Positions 14,483 through 46,153 of a stretch of 64,000 bases of DNA are shown here, one piece after another. Where the stretch lies: the NCBI GenBank assembly GCA_964501575.1, contig CAZCTP010000004.1, positions 9,402-73,401 of the forward strand, written 5' to 3'. Both the position numbers and the translations under genes were made by a program. Source of the DNA: an uncultured Thermodesulfobacteriota bacterium. GTDB lineage: Bacteria > Desulfobacterota > CAZCTP01. Position 1 is the first letter of the stretch. Each line of letters opens with the position of its first letter. The notes under the pieces were generated by a model. That model had not been told where the DNA came from and ran no database searches. It saw only the letters and a program-made list of their open reading frames with translations.

Positions 14483-15109
14483 TTATTTTGAATAATATTC
14501 AACAATTAATTGTTCTTTAATAGGTGCAAGGATAGATTCTCTTGTAGGAAGAGATTTTATAATTCCTTTAAAACTATCCTTATCCAGCTCAAGCCAATCA
14601 GGTATTCCCTTCTTCTCCACAGCTTCTAGAGATTCTACTATTCTTGCAATATCTTTGCTTTTATCTTTAATAGAGATAACATCTCCAACTTTGACTAAAT
14701 ATGATGGAATATCAACTTTTCCCCCATTGACCATAAAATGTCCATGTCGTACAAATTGCCTTGCCTCATTCACAGAACAACAGAATCCCAGTTTATAGAC
14801 CACATTATCCAATCTTCTCTCAAGCAATATTAATAAGTTATCCCCGGTTATTCCCTTCTTTCTATCTGCTATCTCGAAATACTTCTTAAACTGTTTTTCT
14901 AATATACCGTACATCCTCTTAACCTTCTGTTTTTCTCTTAAATGAATTCCATAGTCAGTAAACCTAGACCTCATTAGACCATGCTGCCCTGGTGGATAGT
15001 TTCTCCTCTCAATAGCACACTTATCTGTATAACATCTTTCTCCTTTTAAATGAAGTTTAATACCTTCTCTCCTACAAAGTTTACAAACAGGCCCCCTATA
15101 TCTACCCAT
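14483..15109 (-). CDS. rpsD: 30S ribosomal protein S4
   Basis: 208 aa. [15 protein letters not shown] zinc-type N-terminus and an S4 RNA-binding domain. Confidence 0.95.
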
Positions 15110-16242: not shown

Positions 16243-16978
16243 TTAATATAATGGGGCCTTCTTCAGTAATAACAATAGTATGCTCAAAATGAGCAGAAAG
16301 ACTACCATCTCTTGTCACAGCAGTCCATCCGTTTGGCAATATAGTGACTTCACTTTTACCAACATTTATCATAGGCTCTATAGTAAAGACCATACCTACT
16401 CTTAATCTTATACCTGTACCTGGCTTCCCAAAATTTGGGATTTGAGGATCTTCATGCAAATTCTTACCGATACCATGACCCACAAAATCCTTTACAACAG
16501 AAAAGCCATTATTTTCAGCATATGACTGAATAGCATATGATATATCAAAAACTCTATTGTCTTTCTGGGCCATTTTAACACCTATATATAAAGATTCCTC
16601 TGTTATTCTAAGTAACCTTTCAGCTTCAGGTAAAACCTTTCCAACAGGAAATGTTATAGCAGCATCTCCATAATAACCATCATATATAACTCCAAAATCA
16701 AGGCTCAATATATCACCCTCTTTAAGAACTCTCTTAGATGGAAGCCCATGAACAATCTCATTATTCAAAGAAGTACACAATGAAAATGGAAAGCCTCTAT
16801 ACCCTTTAAATGCTGGTTTAACTCCTCTTTTTTTAGCCAAATCTTCCGAAATTCTATCAAGCTCCAATGTAGTAATTCCAGGAATAGCCTTTTTTTTTAC
16901 TTCATTCAATATTTCAGCAACTATCATACTACTATATTTAATCTTTCTTACCTCTTCAGGTGATTTTAAAATGATCAA
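16217..16978 (-). CDS. map: type I methionine aminopeptidase
   Basis: 253 aa. Pita-bread metal ligands (D..D..H..E..E context: [21 protein letters not shown]). Confidence 0.9.
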
Positions 16979-17616
16979 CTTATAGCCTCTACAATCTCTT
17001 TATGTATCTGCTCAATCCCTCCTATTCCAGAAATAGTCTTTAATATCCCCCTATCTTTATAATAACTTACCAAAGAGGATGTTTCTTCATTATATACATC
17101 TAATCTTACTTTTACCGTATCCTCTCTATCATCCTCCCTCTGATATAGCTCTCCACCACACTTATTACATATCCCATCATTAACAGGAGGATTATATATA
17201 ATATGGTATCCCTCTCCACAATTTCTACAGACCCTTCTTCCAGAAAGCCTTTTTATTATCTCTTTTTCATCTACTTCTATATACAACACATAATCTATAT
17301 TCAAATTTACCTCGGCAAGGTAGCTATCAAGAACCTCACCTTGATAAAGATTTCTGGGAAACCCATCAAGTATAAAACCATTTTTGCAATCCTTCTCTGC
17401 TATCCTTTCCTTAACTATTTCTACAATTATATCATCTGGAACTAGAGCCCCTTTTTTCATATATTCTTTAGCTTTAATACCAAGGGGAGTTTTATTTTTC
17501 ACTGCATCTCTCAACATATCTCCGGTAGATATATGAGGTATCTCATACTTATTACATAATAATTTAGCCTGTGTCCCTTTCCCTGACCCTGGAGGACCTA
17601 AAAATATTATATTCAT
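16975..17616 (-). CDS. adk: adenylate kinase (zinc-finger lid)
   Basis: 213 aa. P-loop GPPGSGKGTQ. Lid has CRNCG...CNKCGG. Confidence 0.95.
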   Translation of the reverse strand: MNIIFLGPPGSGKGTQAKLLCNKYEIPHISTGDMLRDAVKNKTPLGIKAKEYMKKGALVPDDIIVEIVKERIAEKDCKNGFILDGFPRNLYQGEVLDSYLAEVNLNIDYVLYIEVDEKEIIKRLSGRRVCRNCGEGYHIIYNPPVNDGICNKCGGELYQREDDREDTVKVRLDVYNEETSSLVSYYKDRGILKTISGIGGIEQIHKEIVEAIS

Positions 17617-20983: not shown

Positions 20984-21387
20984 ATTGAACAGATTAACTC
21001 TCCACCAACCTTTAATCTTCTTGCTACTTTATCAGTAATAATGCCTTTAGGGGTAGACAATATAGTTATTCCAAATCCATTTAATATTAAAGGTATCTTA
21101 TCACTCTTAACATATTTCCTCAAACTCGGCTTGCTCAACCTCCTTATCTCTTTTATAACTGGTTCTCTATTATCATCATATTTTAAGTATATTATCAATA
21201 TACCCTGCTTACCATCGTTCATAACCTTAAAATTCTTTATATACCCCTCCTCTTTAAGAATCCTTGCAATACTCACCTTAATCTTAGATGAAGGAATATC
21301 AACTTTTTCTGCCTTTGTCTTGAGTGCATTTCTAATTCTTGTAAGCATATCTGCAATAGGATCTGTCATCGCCATATCAAACCTCAC
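20977..21387 (-). CDS. rpsH: 30S ribosomal protein S8
   Basis: 136-aa ORF. The canonical S8 N-terminus [15 protein letters not shown] begins 6 codons in, so the true start may be at 21369. The long form makes an ATGA overlap with rpsZ. Confidence 0.9.
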
Positions 21388-21569
21388 CAGCTAGATTTAA
21401 TAACACCTGGAAGATCTCCCCTTAAAGCATGGACCCTAAAACATATTCTACACATACCAAACTTTCTGTAGTAAGCTCTTGCCCTCCCGCATAAAGGACA
21501 ACGATTATACTTCCTTACTTTAAATTTTGGTTCTCTTTTAGCCTTTATCATTAGTGCCTTTCTTGCCAA
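21384..21569 (-). CDS. rpsZ: 30S ribosomal protein S14 type Z (zinc-binding)
   Basis: 61 aa. [22 protein letters not shown]. Confidence 0.95.
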
Positions 21570-22120: not shown

Positions 22121-22441
22121 CTAAATCTCCTTATCCAATATCTCATTACACTTCTTACAATACCGCACTTTCATACCATTATCCAATACCTTTCTCCCAA
22201 TTCTAACCCCATTATTACAACTATTACATAACAGGAGAAGATTTGATATATGAATAGGAGCCTCTCTTTCAATTATACCTCCTTGCGGATTATTAGTATT
22301 TGGGCGTACATGCTTCTTAATAATATTAACCTTTTCAACAACAGCTCTATTCTCCTTGGGAATAACTCTTAATACCTTACCGGTTTTCCCCTTTTCTTTG
22401 CCAGCAATAACCATTACTATATCGTCTCTCTTTATATGCAT
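22121..22441 (-). CDS. rplX: 50S ribosomal protein L24 with C-terminal CxxC...CxxC motif
   Basis: 106 aa. KOW motif IKRDDIVMVIAGKEKGKTGKV. The C-terminal 35 aa contain CNSC...CKKC. Confidence 0.9.
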   Translation of the reverse strand: MHIKRDDIVMVIAGKEKGKTGKVLRVIPKENRAVVEKVNIIKKHVRPNTNNPQGGIIEREAPIHISNLLLLCNSCNNGVRIGRKVLDNGMKVRYCKKCNEILDKEI

Positions 22442-27304: not shown

Positions 27305-27613
27305 CTAAATCTTTATCTCTACATCAATACCTGATGCTAAATCAAGCCTCATTAAAGCATCAACAGTCTGTTGAGTAGGTTCAAGTATATCCAGCAACCT
27401 CTTATGGACTCTTATTTCAAACTGTTCCCTTGATTTTTTATCTACATGAGGAGACCTCAATACACAATATCTATTAATAGAAGTTGGAAGTGGAATGGGA
27501 CCTGCTACCTTTGCTCCGGTTCTTTTAGCAGTATCTACAATCTCTTTTACAGACTGATCCAACAATCTATGATCGTATCCTTCTAATCTTATTCTTATTT
27601 TCTGAGTCTCCAT
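27305..27613 (-). CDS. rpsJ: 30S ribosomal protein S10
   Basis: 102 aa. [18 protein letters not shown]. Starts 3 bp after the tuf stop. Confidence 0.95.
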
Positions 27614-27616
27614 ATC

Positions 27617-28816
27617 CTATTCCAGTATCTCGCTTATTACTCCAGCCCCCACTGTCTTACCCCCCTCTCTTATAGCAAATCTCAACTCCTTCTCCATAGC
27701 TATAGGAGTTATCAAATTAACTATTAATGATACATTATCCCCAGGCATCACCATCTCAACACCCTCAGGTAAATCAACTATACCAGTCACATCCGTAGTC
27801 CTAAAATAAAACTGCGGCCTATAACCCCTAAAAAATGGCGTGTGCCTACCACCCTCCTCCTTACTCAATATATATACCTCACTCCTAAACCTCTTATGCG
27901 GAGTCACACTCCCGGGCTTAGATAATACCTGACCCCTCTCAACCTCATCCTTCTTTATACCCCTCAATAAACAACCTATATTGTCCCCTGCCCTACCCTC
28001 ATCCAATATCTTCCTGAACATCTCTACACTCGTAACAACCGTCTTAGTAGTCTCCTTAAACCCAACTATCTCTACCTCCTCCCCAGACTTTATAATACCC
28101 CTCTCAACCCTACCAGTAACTACCGTACCCCTACCACTTATACTAAATACATCCTCTATAGGCATCAAAAACGGCTTGTCCACATCCCTCTTGGGATCAG
28201 GAATGTAATTATCTATAGCATCCATTAACTCAAACACTACCTTACACTTATCACAATCCTCCTTACCACAACCACACTCCAATGCCCTCAATGCACTACC
28301 CTTAATAACCGGTATCTCATCACCAGGAAAATTATACTCACTCAATAACTCCCTAACCTCTAACTCAACTAAATCTAATAACTCAGGATCATCAACCATA
28401 TCTACCTTGTTCAAAAATACTACTATATACGGTACCCCAACCTGCCTCGCTAATAATATATGCTCCCTCGTCTGGGGCATAGGACCATCTGCAGCACTAA
28501 CAACTAATATAGCCCCATCCATCTGCGCAGCACCAGTTATCATATTCTTTATATAATCAGCATGCCCAGGACAATCCACATGCGCATAATGCCTCCTATC
28601 CGTCTGATACTCCACATGCGCTATCGCTATCGTAATACCCCTCTCCTTCTCCTCAGGAGCCTTGTCTATATCATCAAAAGGCACATAACTCGCTAACTTC
28701 CTATTAGCCAGTATCTTGGTTATCGCTGAAGTCAATGTAGTCTTACCATGATCCACATGACCCACAGTCCCTATATTAATATGTGGCTTAGTCCTCTCAA
28801 ATCTTGCCTTGCCCAT
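27617..28816 (-). CDS. tuf: elongation factor Tu, copy 1
   Basis: 399 aa. [27 protein letters not shown]. Contains an unusual [12 protein letters not shown] segment. The protein and, where I compared it, the DNA are identical to the copy at 43114..44313. Confidence 0.97.
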
Positions 28817-28826
28817 AAAACCTCCT
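27617..28826. repeat. 1.21-kb perfect direct repeat (tuf copy 1, stop codon to 10 nt upstream of ATG)
   Basis: Sequence is identical to 43114..44323 wherever I compared lines. Identity stops exactly at the stop codon on one side and 10 nt past the start codon on the other. Confidence 0.85.
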
Positions 28827-28838
28827 ATATTTAAAACT

Positions 28839-30917
28839 CTAAAATTTAAACCTACTTATAATCCCTTCTGAAACTGCTACAGGAACTTGATCATAATGGG
28901 AAAATTGCATACTATAATTTGCTCTCCCCTGAGTAATAGATCTTAGATCTGTAGTATATCCAAACATTTCAGCAAGTGGAATCTTAGCATCTATTACCTG
29001 CAAATCATTTCTTGGTTCAATACCTATAACTCTGCCTCTTCTTGAATTTAGATCTCCTATTACATCTCCCAGAAATTCATTGGGAACAATTATCTCTACA
29101 TACATTATAGGCTCAAGAATTACAGGAGATGCTTTCATGCATGCCTCTTTTAAAGCCATAGATGCTGCAATCTTGAACGCTAATTCTGAAGAATCTACCT
29201 CATGATAAGAACCATCATATAATGTAACTTTTATATCTACTATAGGATAGCCTATTAATACGCCTTTCTCCATAGCTTCTAAGATACCCTTTTCTATTGC
29301 AGGGATATATTCCCTTGGTATAGCTCCACCAACAATTTTATTAACGAATTCAAACCCTTTACCTCTCTCCAGAGGCTCCAATTCAATAAATATATGCCCA
29401 TACTGTCCTCTTCCACCCGACTGTTTTATATATTTACCTTCTGCCTTAGCACTTTTTATAACTGTCTCTTTATATGCTACTTCTGGCTTCCCAACATTCG
29501 CTCCTACATTGAATTCCCTTAATAATCTATCCACAATTATCTCAAGATGAAGTTCACCCATACCAGATATTATAGTCTCTCCTGTATCTTCATCAATGCG
29601 AACTTTAAATGATGGATCCTCCATAGCAATTTTATGTAAAGAACCTGATAATTTATCCTGATCATCCTTCGTCTTAGGCTCTATAGCAATAGAAACAACC
29701 GGCTGAGGGAAGGCAATAGATTCCAATATTATAGGATTAGACCCATCACAAAGAGTATCACCTGTAATTGTATCTCTTAATCCAACAGCTGCAGCAATAT
29801 CCCCTGCATAAACCCTTTTTATCTCCTCTCTCTTATTAGCGTGCATCTTAAGTAAACGTCCTATTCTTTCCTTTTTACCTTTAGTAGAATTATATACATA
29901 AGATCCAGAATCCAAAAATCCAGAATATACACGGAAAAATGTCAATTGTCCTACAAAAGGATCATTCATTATCTTAAATGCCAATGCTGAAAAAGGAGCA
30001 TCATCTGAAGTATTCCTAGTATCCCTCTCTCCGTTATCGGGGTTTATACCAACAATATCTGGGATATCGATAGGTGAAGGAAGATAATCTACTATTGCAT
30101 CAAGAAGGGGTTGTATCCCTTTGTTTTTAAAAGCAGCTCCACATAAAATGGGAACTCCCTCGTTATTAATTGTAATCTCTCTTAAACTCCTTTTTATCTC
30201 ATCCATGGATATCTCTTCACCATTAATATATTTTTCCATAAACCTATCATCAAAATCAGCTATGGATTCAAAAAGCTTCTCTCGGTATTCTTCAGCAATC
30301 GATATCATATCATCTGGGATATCTGTCATTCTAAATTTTGCTCCTAATTTACTTCCATCATAAATAATAGCTTTCATATTTATAAGATCCACTACCCCAA
30401 CAAATTTTTCCTCTTTACCCACAGGAAGTTGAATAATAATAGGATTTGTTTTCAGTCTGGTTCTAATCATTTCTATTGTATTAAAATAGTCAGCTCCAAC
30501 TCTATCAAGCTTATTAATAAAAGCTATTCTTGGTATTTTATATCCATCAGCTTGTCTCCAAACCGTTTCAGATTGAGGCTCAACTCCCTCGACCCCAGAA
30601 AATATCGCTACTACCCCATCAAGTACCCTTAAACACCTTTCAACCTCAACAGTGAAATCTACATGCCCAGGAGTATCTATTATATTTATTCTGAAATTTT
30701 TCCAGAAACATGTAGTAGCAGCAGAAGTTATAGTAATACCTCTTTCCTGCTCCTGTTCCATCCAGTCCATTACAGCTGTTCCAGCGTCAACCTCCCCCAT
30801 CTTATATGAAACTCCTGTATAATAGAGTATCCTTTCTGTGGTAGTTGTTTTACCAGCATCAATATGAGCTATTATACCTATATTTCTAATTCTATGTAAG
30901 GGAATAACTCTCTTCAT
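28839..30917 (-). CDS. fusA: elongation factor G
   Basis: The ORF is open to 30929 (MVIIMKRV...). [29 protein letters not shown] aligns with canonical EF-G N-termini, so I take the start at 30917. Confidence 0.93.
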
Positions 30918-30922
30918 AATAA

Positions 30923-31393
30923 TTACCAACGATAATGTGCAAAGGATCTATTAGCCTCTGCCATTCTGTGAACCTCTTCTTTTTTCTTAATTGTACTTCC
31001 ACGATTATTTACAGCCTCTACAATTTCTGCTGCAAGTCTCTCAGACATACTTTTCTCACTCCTCCTCTTAGCAAACTGAACTAACCACCTAATTGCTAGA
31101 GACAACCTCCTTTCAGCTCTCACCTCAACTGGAACCTGATAAGTAGCTCCACCAACTCTTCTAGACTTCACCTCAATCACTGGCTTCGCATTCTCTATAG
31201 CCTTTTTTAATACATTAACCGGATCCTCTTTAAGCTTATTCCCAGCTATATTAATAGCTTCATAACATATAGACTCAGCAACACTCTTCTTCCCCTTTTT
31301 CATAATCACATTTATAACCTTAGCTACAGTAATATCATTATATTTAAGATCAGGTAATGTTCCTCTTCTCCCTGCTTTTTTTCTTCTAGGCAT
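30923..31393 (-). CDS. rpsG: 30S ribosomal protein S7
   Basis: 156 aa. Confidence 0.95.
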
Positions 31394-42951: not shown

Positions 42952-43101
42952 TTATTTTATCTCCCTATGAATAGTATGTTTATTACAGAAGGAACAATAT
43001 TTTTTAAATTCCAACTTATCAGGAACGTTCCTTTTATTCTTAGTTGTTGAATAATTTCTTCTTTTACACTCATTACAGGATAAAGTTATTATCTCCTTCA
43101 T
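42952..43101 (-). CDS. rpmG: 50S ribosomal protein L33 (zinc-binding C+ form)
   Basis: Hand-translated 49 codons, [49 protein letters not shown]. Under 60 aa, so not in the ORF track. Confidence 0.85.
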
Positions 43102-43113
43102 TATCAATCCCCT

Positions 43114-44313
43114 CTATTCCAGTATCTCGCTTATTACTCCAGCCCCCACTGTCTTACCCCCCTCTCTTATAGCAAATCTCAACTCCTTCTCCATAGCTAT
43201 AGGAGTTATCAAATTAACTATTAATGATACATTATCCCCAGGCATCACCATCTCAACACCCTCAGGTAAATCAACTATACCAGTCACATCCGTAGTCCTA
43301 AAATAAAACTGCGGCCTATAACCCCTAAAAAATGGCGTGTGCCTACCACCCTCCTCCTTACTCAATATATATACCTCACTCCTAAACCTCTTATGCGGAG
43401 TCACACTCCCGGGCTTAGATAATACCTGACCCCTCTCAACCTCATCCTTCTTTATACCCCTCAATAAACAACCTATATTGTCCCCTGCCCTACCCTCATC
43501 CAATATCTTCCTGAACATCTCTACACTCGTAACAACCGTCTTAGTAGTCTCCTTAAACCCAACTATCTCTACCTCCTCCCCAGACTTTATAATACCCCTC
43601 TCAACCCTACCAGTAACTACCGTACCCCTACCACTTATACTAAATACATCCTCTATAGGCATCAAAAACGGCTTGTCCACATCCCTCTTGGGATCAGGAA
43701 TGTAATTATCTATAGCATCCATTAACTCAAACACTACCTTACACTTATCACAATCCTCCTTACCACAACCACACTCCAATGCCCTCAATGCACTACCCTT
43801 AATAACCGGTATCTCATCACCAGGAAAATTATACTCACTCAATAACTCCCTAACCTCTAACTCAACTAAATCTAATAACTCAGGATCATCAACCATATCT
43901 ACCTTGTTCAAAAATACTACTATATACGGTACCCCAACCTGCCTCGCTAATAATATATGCTCCCTCGTCTGGGGCATAGGACCATCTGCAGCACTAACAA
44001 CTAATATAGCCCCATCCATCTGCGCAGCACCAGTTATCATATTCTTTATATAATCAGCATGCCCAGGACAATCCACATGCGCATAATGCCTCCTATCCGT
44101 CTGATACTCCACATGCGCTATCGCTATCGTAATACCCCTCTCCTTCTCCTCAGGAGCCTTGTCTATATCATCAAAAGGCACATAACTCGCTAACTTCCTA
44201 TTAGCCAGTATCTTGGTTATCGCTGAAGTCAATGTAGTCTTACCATGATCCACATGACCCACAGTCCCTATATTAATATGTGGCTTAGTCCTCTCAAATC
44301 TTGCCTTGCCCAT
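43114..44313 (-). CDS. tuf: elongation factor Tu, copy 2
   Basis: Identical 399-aa translation to copy 1. Preceded by four tRNA genes as in E. coli tufB. Confidence 0.97.
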
Positions 44314-44323
44314 AAAACCTCCT
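43114..44323. repeat. 1.21-kb perfect direct repeat (tuf copy 2)
   Basis: Partner of the 27617..28826 repeat. Confidence 0.85.
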
Positions 44324-45985: not shown

Positions 45986-46153
45986 GTGTCTTATAAAATA
46001 ACCGATGAGTGCATTGCCTGTGGAGCATGCCAACCAGAATGTTCTGCAGAAGCTATAAAGGATGGGGATAAATATTCTATAGATCCTGAAAAATGTACAG
46101 AATGTGGGTCATGTGCAGATGTTTGCCCCGTAAGTGCCTGTATACCTGCTTAA
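45986..46153 (+). CDS. 2[4Fe-4S] clostridial-type ferredoxin (55 aa, GTG start)
   Basis: Hand-translated (M)SYKITDECIACGACQPECSAEAIKDGDKYSIDPEKCTECGSCADVCPVSACIPA. Two CxxCxxCxxxCP motifs. RBS AAGGGGGG sits 9-10 nt upstream of the GTG. Under 60 aa, so absent from the ORF track. Confidence 0.8.
   Translation: MSYKITDECIACGACQPECSAEAIKDGDKYSIDPEKCTECGSCADVCPVSACIPA

What the first reader, a model, noticed from the sequence alone, without database searches (positions are those of the whole stretch)
28210..28290. EF-Tu carries a four-cysteine insertion ([12 protein letters not shown]) in place of the usual acidic segment
E. coli-type EF-Tu has ...ALEGDAEWEAKILELAG... here. Both copies in this window instead read ...[25 protein letters not shown].... 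That is a C-x-C-x5-C-x2-C cluster at the end of the G domain, just before domain 2. Four clustered cysteines in a cytosolic thermophile protein suggest a structural Zn knuckle or a redox-sensitive site on the most abundant translation factor. I know of no such site in characterised EF-Tu.
Basis: seen in the sequence. Interest (0 to 1): 0.62.

Follow-up and report, generated by a model that had tools for sequence, protein, structure and literature searches.

The report
Conserved four-cysteine metal site in EF-Tu
Both copies of the translation factor EF-Tu here carry a conserved four-cysteine loop, very probably a structural zinc site, which occurs in bacteria of many phyla but which I found in no solved structure or searchable paper.

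Summary
Both tuf genes (27617-28816 and 43114-44313, minus strand, 100% identical DNA) encode EF-Tu with C181-G-C183-G-K-E-D-C188-D-K-C191. This is a net 5-residue insertion relative to the E. coli segment EGDAEWEAK.

It is not peculiar to this genome. Of those hits, 119 were EF-Tu with C-[GA]-C-[GA]-x3-C-x2-C, from more than 15 phyla, many of them mesophiles.

In an unselected metagenome sample of 119 EF-Tu with the same segment length, the four positions were CCCC (26), HCCC (3) or held at most one Cys (90). None had two or three ligands. The only substitutions seen in otherwise intact sites are His at position 1 and Asp at position 2.

AlphaFold2 places the cysteines in a high-confidence loop between the last two G-domain helices. 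No PDB EF-Tu has the site, and ten literature searches found no description of it.

Best reading: a structural metal site, most likely Zn(Cys)4. It would be a "C+" form of EF-Tu, like the C+/C- forms of ribosomal proteins and the adenylate kinase lid. Metal binding and site geometry were not tested.

The parts
27617..28816 (-). tufA: EF-Tu, 399 aa, in the str operon between fusA (28839-30929) and rpsJ (27305-27613)
   Evidence: ORF and translation. TIGR00485 736 bits against a cut-off of 522.4. PDB EF-Tu hits at E about 1e-213.
28244..28276 (-). Cys4 core C181-G-C183-G-K-E-D-C188-D-K-C191. Codons: C181 28274-28276, C183 28268-28270, C188 28253-28255, C191 28244-28246.
   Evidence: Motif located. 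AlphaFold2 gives helix 175-181, loop 182-191 and helix 192-204, with block pLDDT 93-95.
43114..44313 (-). tufB: second EF-Tu gene, identical to tufA. It is preceded by tRNA-Thr/Tyr/Gly/Thr and followed by rpmG and tRNA-Trp.
   Evidence: 100% protein identity. 0 DNA mismatches in the CDS. tRNAs. L33 identified.
43741..43773 (-). The same Cys4 core in tufB

Best explanation
The four cysteines form one structural metal site, most likely tetrahedral Zn(Cys)4, in a short zinc-binding loop. The loop is inserted between the last two alpha-helices of the EF-Tu G domain. C181 ends helix 175-181, and C183 sits in the following turn. C188-x2-C191 forms a knuckle that caps the N-terminus of helix 192-204. 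The metal would staple this 10-residue surface loop and clamp the two helices together. This would stiffen the part of the G domain that leads into the linker to domain 2, without touching the GTP, tRNA, EF-Ts or ribosome contact surfaces. On this reading it is a 'C+' form of EF-Tu. Other lineages carry a same-length metal-free 'C-' form (Ser, Ser, Ala/Asp and Tyr/Phe at the four positions, with a Pro-rich DPxAPEY loop) or have the loop deleted (E. coli type). Shown here: the sequence pattern, its conservation, its distribution and its predicted secondary-structure setting. Inferred: metal binding, the identity of the metal, a stabilising role, and the location away from partner-binding surfaces. 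The last point comes from general knowledge of EF-Tu complexes and was not computed here.
For: (1) The pattern C-[GA]-C-[GA]-x3-C-x2-C occurs in EF-Tu in 119 of 120 genome hits from many phyla. The four Cys are invariant by construction of the pattern, but the flanks are also conserved: Gly after C1 in 113/119, Gly after C2 in 114/119, an acidic residue before C3 in 108/119, and G or K after C4 in 96/119. (2) In an unselected sample of 119 metagenomic EF-Tu of the same segment length, the ligand quartet is CCCC in 26, HCCC in 3, and holds at most one Cys in 90. There are no 2- or 3-ligand intermediates. This is the all-or-none pattern expected of one cooperative four-ligand site. (3) The only substitutions in otherwise intact sites are C1 to His (P0208, P0223, P0234, L212, L215, L218) and C2 to Asp (P0164, P0196, P0235). 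Both are zinc ligands. (4) The AlphaFold2 model has block pLDDT 93-95 across residues 171-200. The Cys lie at a helix C-terminus, in the loop, and at the N-cap of the next helix. (5) The same genome keeps the Cys4 forms of S4, S14 (type Z), L33, L24 and the adenylate kinase lid. (6) About 115 of the 120 closest full-length homologues (79-89% identity) keep the site.
Against: No metal content was measured. No coordinates were returned by the structure tool, so S-S distances and tetrahedral geometry could not be checked. No solved EF-Tu structure contains the loop. The first ligand pair is CxC rather than the commoner CxxC. The stabilising role is not specific to heat, because many carriers are mesophiles. 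The C+ state of the adjacent L33 does not track the EF-Tu state: 38/38 in C+ loci against 21/23 in C- loci. There is therefore no independent genomic signal of a shared zinc-economy regime.
Confidence: 0.68

Rival explanations
1. The site is a redox or zinc sensor. A Zn-thiolate centre would release its metal and form disulfides on oxidative or thiol stress. This would reversibly destabilise or inactivate EF-Tu and throttle translation, as in Hsp33 or RsrA-type switches. It is compatible with the site also being structural.
For: Many carriers are anaerobes or microaerophiles: Moorella, Pelotomaculum, Desulforudis, Syntrophomonas, anammox bacteria, sulfate reducers and Omnitrophota. EF-Tu is a known redox target elsewhere, through a different Cys (titles and abstracts of PMC10212517 and of PDB 8ym3/8yly).
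Against: Carriers include lineages that are largely aerobic: Sulfobacillus, Gemmatimonadota, Thermoleophilia and Binatia. His and Asp replacements preserve metal binding but would blunt a thiol switch. The loop lies away from the nucleotide and switch regions (plus general EF-Tu knowledge). No partner or regulator gene is linked to it.
Confidence: 0.12
2. The site binds iron in vivo. It would be a rubredoxin-like Fe(Cys)4 centre, or would ligate an Fe-S cluster, in iron-rich anaerobes.
For: There are four Cys with a CxxC-G knuckle in about half of the sequences. The carriers are predominantly anaerobic.
Against: Only one of the two pairs is a CxxC knuckle, and the other is CxC. The aromatic core typical of rubredoxin is absent. 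An Asp or His substitution is more typical of zinc sites. An electron-transfer role has no rationale in EF-Tu. The site is also present in aerobes.
Confidence: 0.07
3. There is no metal. The cysteines form one or two intramolecular disulfides that staple the loop, as in the disulfide-rich cytoplasmic proteins of some thermophiles.
For: The organism looks thermophilic: the IVYWREL fraction of 0.4375 gives a rough growth-temperature estimate of about 75 C. The four Cys are close together in sequence.
Against: The motif is widespread in mesophilic anaerobes with reducing cytoplasm. His and Asp substitutions would leave an unpaired Cys. The all-or-none pattern involves four positions, not independent pairs.
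Confidence: 0.05
4. The site is a neutral lineage marker or indel with no functional role, or a sequencing or assembly artefact.
For: The loop is a known variable region of EF-Tu. Thermus has a 10-residue insert at this position, and a Thermotoga-like sequence has a Cys-free insert.
Against: There are two identical copies in the window. The quartet has been maintained across more than 15 phyla, while the residues between the Cys vary freely. The pattern is all-or-none.
Confidence: 0.02

Closest known systems
C+/C- forms of bacterial ribosomal proteins (S14, S18, L28, L31, L32, L33, L36; Makarova, Ponomarev and Koonin 2001, cited from memory)
   Same: A universal translation component exists in a Cys4 zinc-binding form and a Cys-free form. 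The distribution across phyla is patchy and the state has switched repeatedly: 8 inferred changes in a 131-sequence NJ tree, against 37.5 for shuffled labels. The window itself carries C+ S14, L33 and S4.
   Different: The EF-Tu site is a short loop (CxC-x4-CxxC), not a zinc ribbon. In this genome there is no C- paralogue, because both tuf copies are identical C+. The Zur-regulated zinc-sparing pair arrangement is therefore not seen here. I found no description of EF-Tu in this context.
Adenylate kinase LID domain: a Cys4-Zn form in many Gram-positive, thermophilic and anaerobic bacteria, against a hydrogen-bonded His/Ser/Asp/Thr form in E. coli (own knowledge)
   Same: It is a housekeeping nucleotide-binding enzyme in which a structural Cys4 site is replaced, at the same length, by polar residues in other lineages. 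EF-Tu shows the analogous swap: C, C, C, C becomes S, S, A/D, Y/F. The window's Adk has the Cys4 lid CRNCG...CNKCG.
   Different: The fold context differs, and the Adk site has been demonstrated experimentally. The EF-Tu site has not.
Thermus EF-Tu 10-residue insertion at the same position (PDB 1EFT, 1EXM, 1TTT) and the Cys-free insert in PDB 5W75 (ALEAPDDPNHEAYKPIQELL)
   Same: The insertion point is the same, between the last two G-domain helices (alignments, with Thermus chains 5 residues longer over the same span). The models superpose globally, with TM 0.88 to 1EXM.
   Different: Those inserts contain no cysteines and bind no metal. Their lengths also differ: +10 and +4 relative to E. coli, against +5 here.
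aIF2-gamma / eIF2-gamma zinc knuckle in the G domain of an EF-Tu-family GTPase (Schmitt et al. 2002, own knowledge)
   Same: It is a Cys4 knuckle inserted into the G domain of a tRNA-carrying translational GTPase of the same superfamily. The window protein hits eif2g_arch at 125 bits, far below that family's cut-off.
   Different: From memory, the aIF2-gamma knuckle is inserted much earlier in the G domain, near switch 1. That makes it an independent insertion and not homologous. I did not verify the position here.

Membership tests
Bacterial elongation factor Tu (TIGR00485) | Whole-protein score above the curated cut-off | tested here: met
   736 bits against a cut-off of 522.4, with the full length aligned 1-399.
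Bacterial elongation factor Tu (TIGR00485) | GTPase motifs and three-domain architecture | tested here: met
   [17 protein letters not shown] and GSAL are present in the translation. PF00009, PF03144 and PF03143 are on record for the identical protein P0121. Foldseek gives TM 0.88 to Thermus EF-Tu-GppNHp.
Bacterial elongation factor Tu (TIGR00485) | Canonical genomic context | tested here: met
   rpsL-rpsG-fusA-tufA-rpsJ arrangement, and tRNA(Thr,Tyr,Gly,Thr)-tufB-rpmG-tRNA(Trp)-secE-nusG.
Structural Zn(Cys)4 site (zinc knuckle / short zinc-binding loop) | Four potential ligands (C/H/D) close together in sequence | tested here: met
   C181, C183, C188 and C191 lie within 11 residues.
Structural Zn(Cys)4 site (zinc knuckle / short zinc-binding loop) | Ligands conserved together (all-or-none) across homologues | tested here: met
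   Among 119 same-length EF-Tu: CCCC 26, HCCC 3, at most one Cys in 90, and none with 2 or 3 ligands.
Structural Zn(Cys)4 site (zinc knuckle / short zinc-binding loop) | Substitutions in intact sites limited to other metal ligands | tested here: met
   Only C1 to His and C2 to Asp were seen.
Structural Zn(Cys)4 site (zinc knuckle / short zinc-binding loop) | Tetrahedral geometry (S-S about 3.5-4 A) in the 3D structure | not testable with these tools
   The AlphaFold2 run returned only pLDDT and DSSP: a loop between two helices with pLDDT 93-95. No coordinates were available.
Structural Zn(Cys)4 site (zinc knuckle / short zinc-binding loop) | Stoichiometric metal actually bound | not testable with these tools
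   This needs ICP-MS, a PAR assay or anomalous diffraction on purified protein.
Zur-regulated C+/C- paralogue pair (zinc-sparing response) | A Cys-free paralogue alongside the Cys4 copy in the same genome | tested here: not met
   Both tuf copies in the window are identical C+. The rest of the genome was not available.
Rubredoxin-like Fe(Cys)4 | Two CxxCG knuckles on a rubredoxin fold | tested here: not met
   The first pair is C-G-C, not CxxC. Only the second pair is CxxC, followed by G in 60/119. The whole site is an 11-residue loop.
Thiol-based redox switch (Hsp33/RsrA type) | Reversible oxidation with metal release that changes activity | not testable with these tools
   There are no biochemical data, and the taxon distribution is mixed between anaerobes and aerobes.

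The most novel reading that the evidence does not exclude
EF-Tu, usually the most abundant cytoplasmic protein, is an unrecognised stoichiometric zinc protein in a large and phylogenetically broad set of bacteria. On this reading the Cys4 form is the older state and has been lost repeatedly, either to a same-length Ser/Ser/Ala/Tyr loop or by deletion. EF-Tu would then hold a cellular zinc pool comparable to that of the ribosome and would make translation zinc- and oxidant-sensitive in these lineages. Published ancestral EF-Tu reconstructions, which are the closest solved structures to this protein and lack the loop, would be missing a stabilising metal site.
Probability: 0.2. Interest if true: 0.75.

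Novelty: new variant of a known kind. Interest (0 to 1): 0.55.

Why it matters
If the site binds zinc, each EF-Tu molecule would hold one zinc ion. From general knowledge, cells carry several EF-Tu molecules per ribosome. EF-Tu would then be one of the largest zinc sinks in the cells that carry it. It would extend the well-known C+/C- zinc polymorphism from ribosomal proteins to a translation factor.

That has four consequences:
- **Zinc economy and oxygen sensitivity.** It bears on how anaerobes, anammox bacteria, sulfate reducers and many uncultured phyla budget zinc and tolerate oxidants.
- **Thermostability.** It bears on how EF-Tu thermostability data are interpreted.
- **Ancestral reconstructions.** Reconstructed ancestral EF-Tu proteins have been used to infer ancient temperatures (own knowledge). 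The solved reconstructions lack this loop.
- **Heterologous expression.** These EF-Tu proteins may need zinc and reducing conditions when expressed in other hosts.

The idea is cheap to test, because cultured carriers exist (Moorella, Carboxydothermus, Desulforudis, Sulfobacillus, Thermosulfurimonas, Kuenenia).

Tried and rejected
- **First genome scan.** My pattern had a spacing error: 11 codons instead of 10 between C4 and the conserved Asp. It returned nothing. I corrected it after testing on the window.
- **Fragment query of the protein database.** It returned only short partial proteins. These showed the motif in other lineages but were useless for estimating frequencies.
- **Measuring Cys-Cys distances.** The structure tool gives no coordinates, and no model file appears in the sandbox.
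- **Foldseek against the PDB.** It only re-found EF-Tu and gave no information on the loop.
- **Link between EF-Tu state and the neighbouring L33.** L33 is C+ nearly everywhere (38/38 against 21/23), so this is uninformative.
- **Naming the organism.** The exact-sequence look-ups returned unnamed metagenome contigs. The nearest EF-Tu sequences in a crude tree are from Nitrospirae MAGs.
- **Literature.** Ten full-text searches found nothing on a Cys4 or zinc site in bacterial EF-Tu. Two papers checked by text search did not mention it (PMC7264889, PMC2749021). The Makarova 2001 paper is not held. Subscription-journal literature was not searchable.
- **Readings rejected.** Chance or sequencing artefact, and a thermophile-specific adaptation.

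Full report
**1. What is in the sequence**

It encodes a 399-aa protein reading ...[38 protein letters not shown]....
- The motif [12 protein letters not shown] is residues 180-191, at window 28244-28279. A second copy lies at 43741-43776 in ORF 43114-44313.
- The two proteins are identical. The two genes have no DNA mismatch over the CDS plus 10 nt upstream, which points to gene conversion.
- The protein is a genuine EF-Tu. TIGR00485 scores 736 bits against a cut-off of 522.4, and PDB EF-Tu chains match at E about 1e-213.
- The context is canonical. One copy sits in fusA-tufA-rpsJ. The other follows tRNA-Thr/Tyr/Gly/Thr and precedes rpmG, tRNA-Trp, secE and nusG.
- The protein has six Cys in total: 82, 181, 183, 188, 191 and 282.

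Between the conserved GSAL and D-x-Y-I-P, the window protein has 25 residues and E. coli has 20. The feature is therefore a net 5-residue insertion. C188 and C191 occupy the positions that flank 'EW' in E. coli. Many Cys4 sequences read C-E-W-C at this point.

**2. It is not chance and not specific to this genome**

- About 115 of the 120 best full-length homologues (79-89% identity) carry C-[GA]-C-[GA]-x3-C-x2-C. The named ones are Nitrospirae, Desulfobacteria, Thermodesulfobacteriota and Tectomicrobia.
- A degenerate DNA pattern for GSAL-x4-C[GA]C[GA]-x3-C-x2-C-x10-D was checked on the window.
- Of those loci, 119 translate to EF-Tu with the motif.
- The record titles name many lineages:
  - Bacillota: Moorella, Pelotomaculum, Desulforudis, Sulfobacillus, Symbiobacterium, Caloramator, Syntrophomonas, Negativicutes and Dethiobacteria.
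  - Delta-proteobacterial lineages, Nitrospirota, Aquificota and Thermodesulfobacteriales.
  - Anammox Planctomycetota: Kuenenia, Scalindua and Jettenia.
  - Omnitrophota, Saccharibacteria and other Patescibacteria, Elusimicrobia and Coatesbacteria.
  - Actinomycetota (Thermoleophilia), Chloroflexi, Acidobacteriota, Gemmatimonadota, Binatia, Armatimonadia, WOR-3 and Leptospiraceae.
- Many of these are mesophiles, so the site is not a thermophile trait. The window organism itself does look thermophilic: its IVYWREL fraction of 0.4375 gives a rough estimate of about 75 C.

**3. Test of the 'one site' idea**

I scanned metagenome contigs with a pattern that fixes only the flanks and the segment length, with no Cys requirement. 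The first 120 hits gave 119 EF-Tu segments. At the four ligand positions they read as follows.

| Residues at the four positions | Count |
|---|---|
| CCCC | 26 |
| HCCC | 3 |
| SSAY, SSAF, SSSY, SSDY and similar (no Cys) | most of the remaining 90 |
| C1 only (CSAY, CSDY, CSDF) | 11 |
| Two or three ligands | 0 |

- Together with the C2-to-Asp variants among close homologues, the only replacements in intact sites are His and Asp. Both are zinc ligands.
- The single irregular sequence was P0007, a 109-aa fragment with C1 and C2 followed by a shortened, scrambled-looking stretch. It is probably a frameshift.
- The flanks are also constrained in the Cys4 class: Gly after C1 in 113/119, Gly after C2 in 114/119, Asp or Glu before C3 in 108/119, and Gly or Lys after C4 in 96/119. 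The residues between the Cys vary.
- This is the signature of a cooperative four-ligand metal site.
- The scan also shows that a common metal-free loop of identical length exists, with consensus ALE-S-x-S-x-D-P-x-A-P-E-Y.

**4. Structure**

- An AlphaFold2 model built with a 48-sequence alignment has mean pLDDT 79.9 and block pLDDT 93-95 over residues 171-200.
- DSSP gives helix 175-181, loop 182-191 and helix 192-204.
- C181 therefore ends one helix, C183 is in the turn, and C188-x2-C191 caps the next helix.
- That arrangement is typical of zinc knuckles.
- The model superposes on Thermus EF-Tu-GppNHp at TM 0.88.
- No EF-Tu in the PDB contains the cluster. Alignments show a 5-residue gap in E. 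coli-like and reconstructed ancestral proteins, a Cys-free insert in 5W75, and a longer Cys-free insert in Thermus.

**5. Evolution**

An NJ tree of 131 full-length same-length EF-Tu sequences was built without the segment columns. It needs 8 C+/C- state changes, against 37.5 for shuffled labels.
- The state is therefore heritable but has switched repeatedly.
- The window protein groups with two Nitrospirae MAGs.
- The direction of change (loss or gain) is not resolved. The tree is crude and midpoint-rooted, and the sample is biased.

**6. Context in the window**

The genome keeps the Cys4 forms of S4, S14 (type Z, 61 aa), L33, the adenylate kinase lid, and an L24 with CNSC...CKKC. This fits a lineage that generally retains structural zinc sites. 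However, the state of the neighbouring L33 does not discriminate between C+ and C- EF-Tu loci.

**7. Interpretation**

- **Best explanation (0.68).** A structural metal site, most likely Zn(Cys)4, staples the loop between the last two G-domain helices. It would be a 'C+' form of EF-Tu, analogous to the C+/C- ribosomal proteins and the adenylate kinase lid.
- **Rivals.** A redox- or zinc-responsive switch, not mutually exclusive (0.12). An iron site (0.07). Disulfides without metal (0.05). A neutral indel or artefact (0.02).
- **Not demonstrated.** Metal binding, metal identity and functional effect are all inferred.

**8. Novelty**

Ten full-text searches and two targeted paper checks found no description of a Cys4 or zinc site in bacterial EF-Tu. 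The PDB has no example.
- The sequences have long been public, and non-open literature could not be searched. A prior mention therefore cannot be excluded.
- I rate it a new variant of a known kind: a lineage-variable structural zinc site in a core translation component.
- It is of moderate to good interest because of EF-Tu's abundance and because the idea is directly testable in cultured carriers.

Noticed in passing
window 27617-28826 and 43114-44323: tufA and tufB are 100% identical at DNA level across the CDS and 10 nt upstream. Identity stops at the stop codon. This is consistent with ongoing gene conversion between the two copies.
   Followed up: partly
window 22121-22441 (-): Ribosomal protein L24 (TIGR01079, 130 bits) carries a CNSC...CKKC pair. 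This looks like a Cys4 site in a protein that, from memory, is not among the classic C+/C- ribosomal proteins.
   Followed up: no
window 14483-15109, 16975-17616, 21384-21569, 42952-43107 (all -): S4 (CKLC...CYTDKC), the adenylate kinase lid (CRNCG...CNKCG), type-Z S14 (61 aa) and L33 are all in their Cys4 zinc-type forms. The translation and housekeeping set of this genome is consistently 'C+'.
   Followed up: partly
loci L125-L244 (metagenome contigs), e.g. L137 8339-8470: A very common Cys-free EF-Tu loop has exactly the same length as the Cys4 loop. Its consensus is ALE-S-x-S-x-D-P-x-A-P-E-Y-k-c-I-w-E-L, and it occurs in human-gut contigs among others. Eleven of these sequences still keep a Cys at ligand position 1.
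   Followed up: partly
L084 (JACQXV010000210.1) and P0003: A MAG labelled Woesearchaeota archaeon holds a bacterial EF-Tu whose motif matches anammox bacteria (compare L094 Jettenia). A partial EF-Tu labelled Klebsiella pneumoniae matches Syntrophomonadaceae-type sequences (compare L003, L023, L024). Both look like mis-binned or contaminant records.
   Followed up: no
window 45986-46153 (+): A 55-aa ORF has two CxxCxxCxxxCP motifs, which makes it a 2x[4Fe-4S] ferredoxin-type protein. It lies just upstream of the tRNA-tufB cluster on the opposite strand.
   Followed up: no
whole window (52 ORFs): G+C is 34.4%. The IVYWREL fraction of 0.4375 gives a rough optimal growth temperature near 75 C. 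The nearest EF-Tu neighbours in a crude tree are Nitrospirae MAGs. The source may be a Thermodesulfovibrio-like thermophile, but it was not identified.
   Followed up: partly
PDB hits: The closest solved structures by sequence (about 75-77% identity) are laboratory-reconstructed ancestral EF-Tu proteins (6I8R, 6GFU, 5W76). All lack the 5-residue Cys loop.
   Followed up: no
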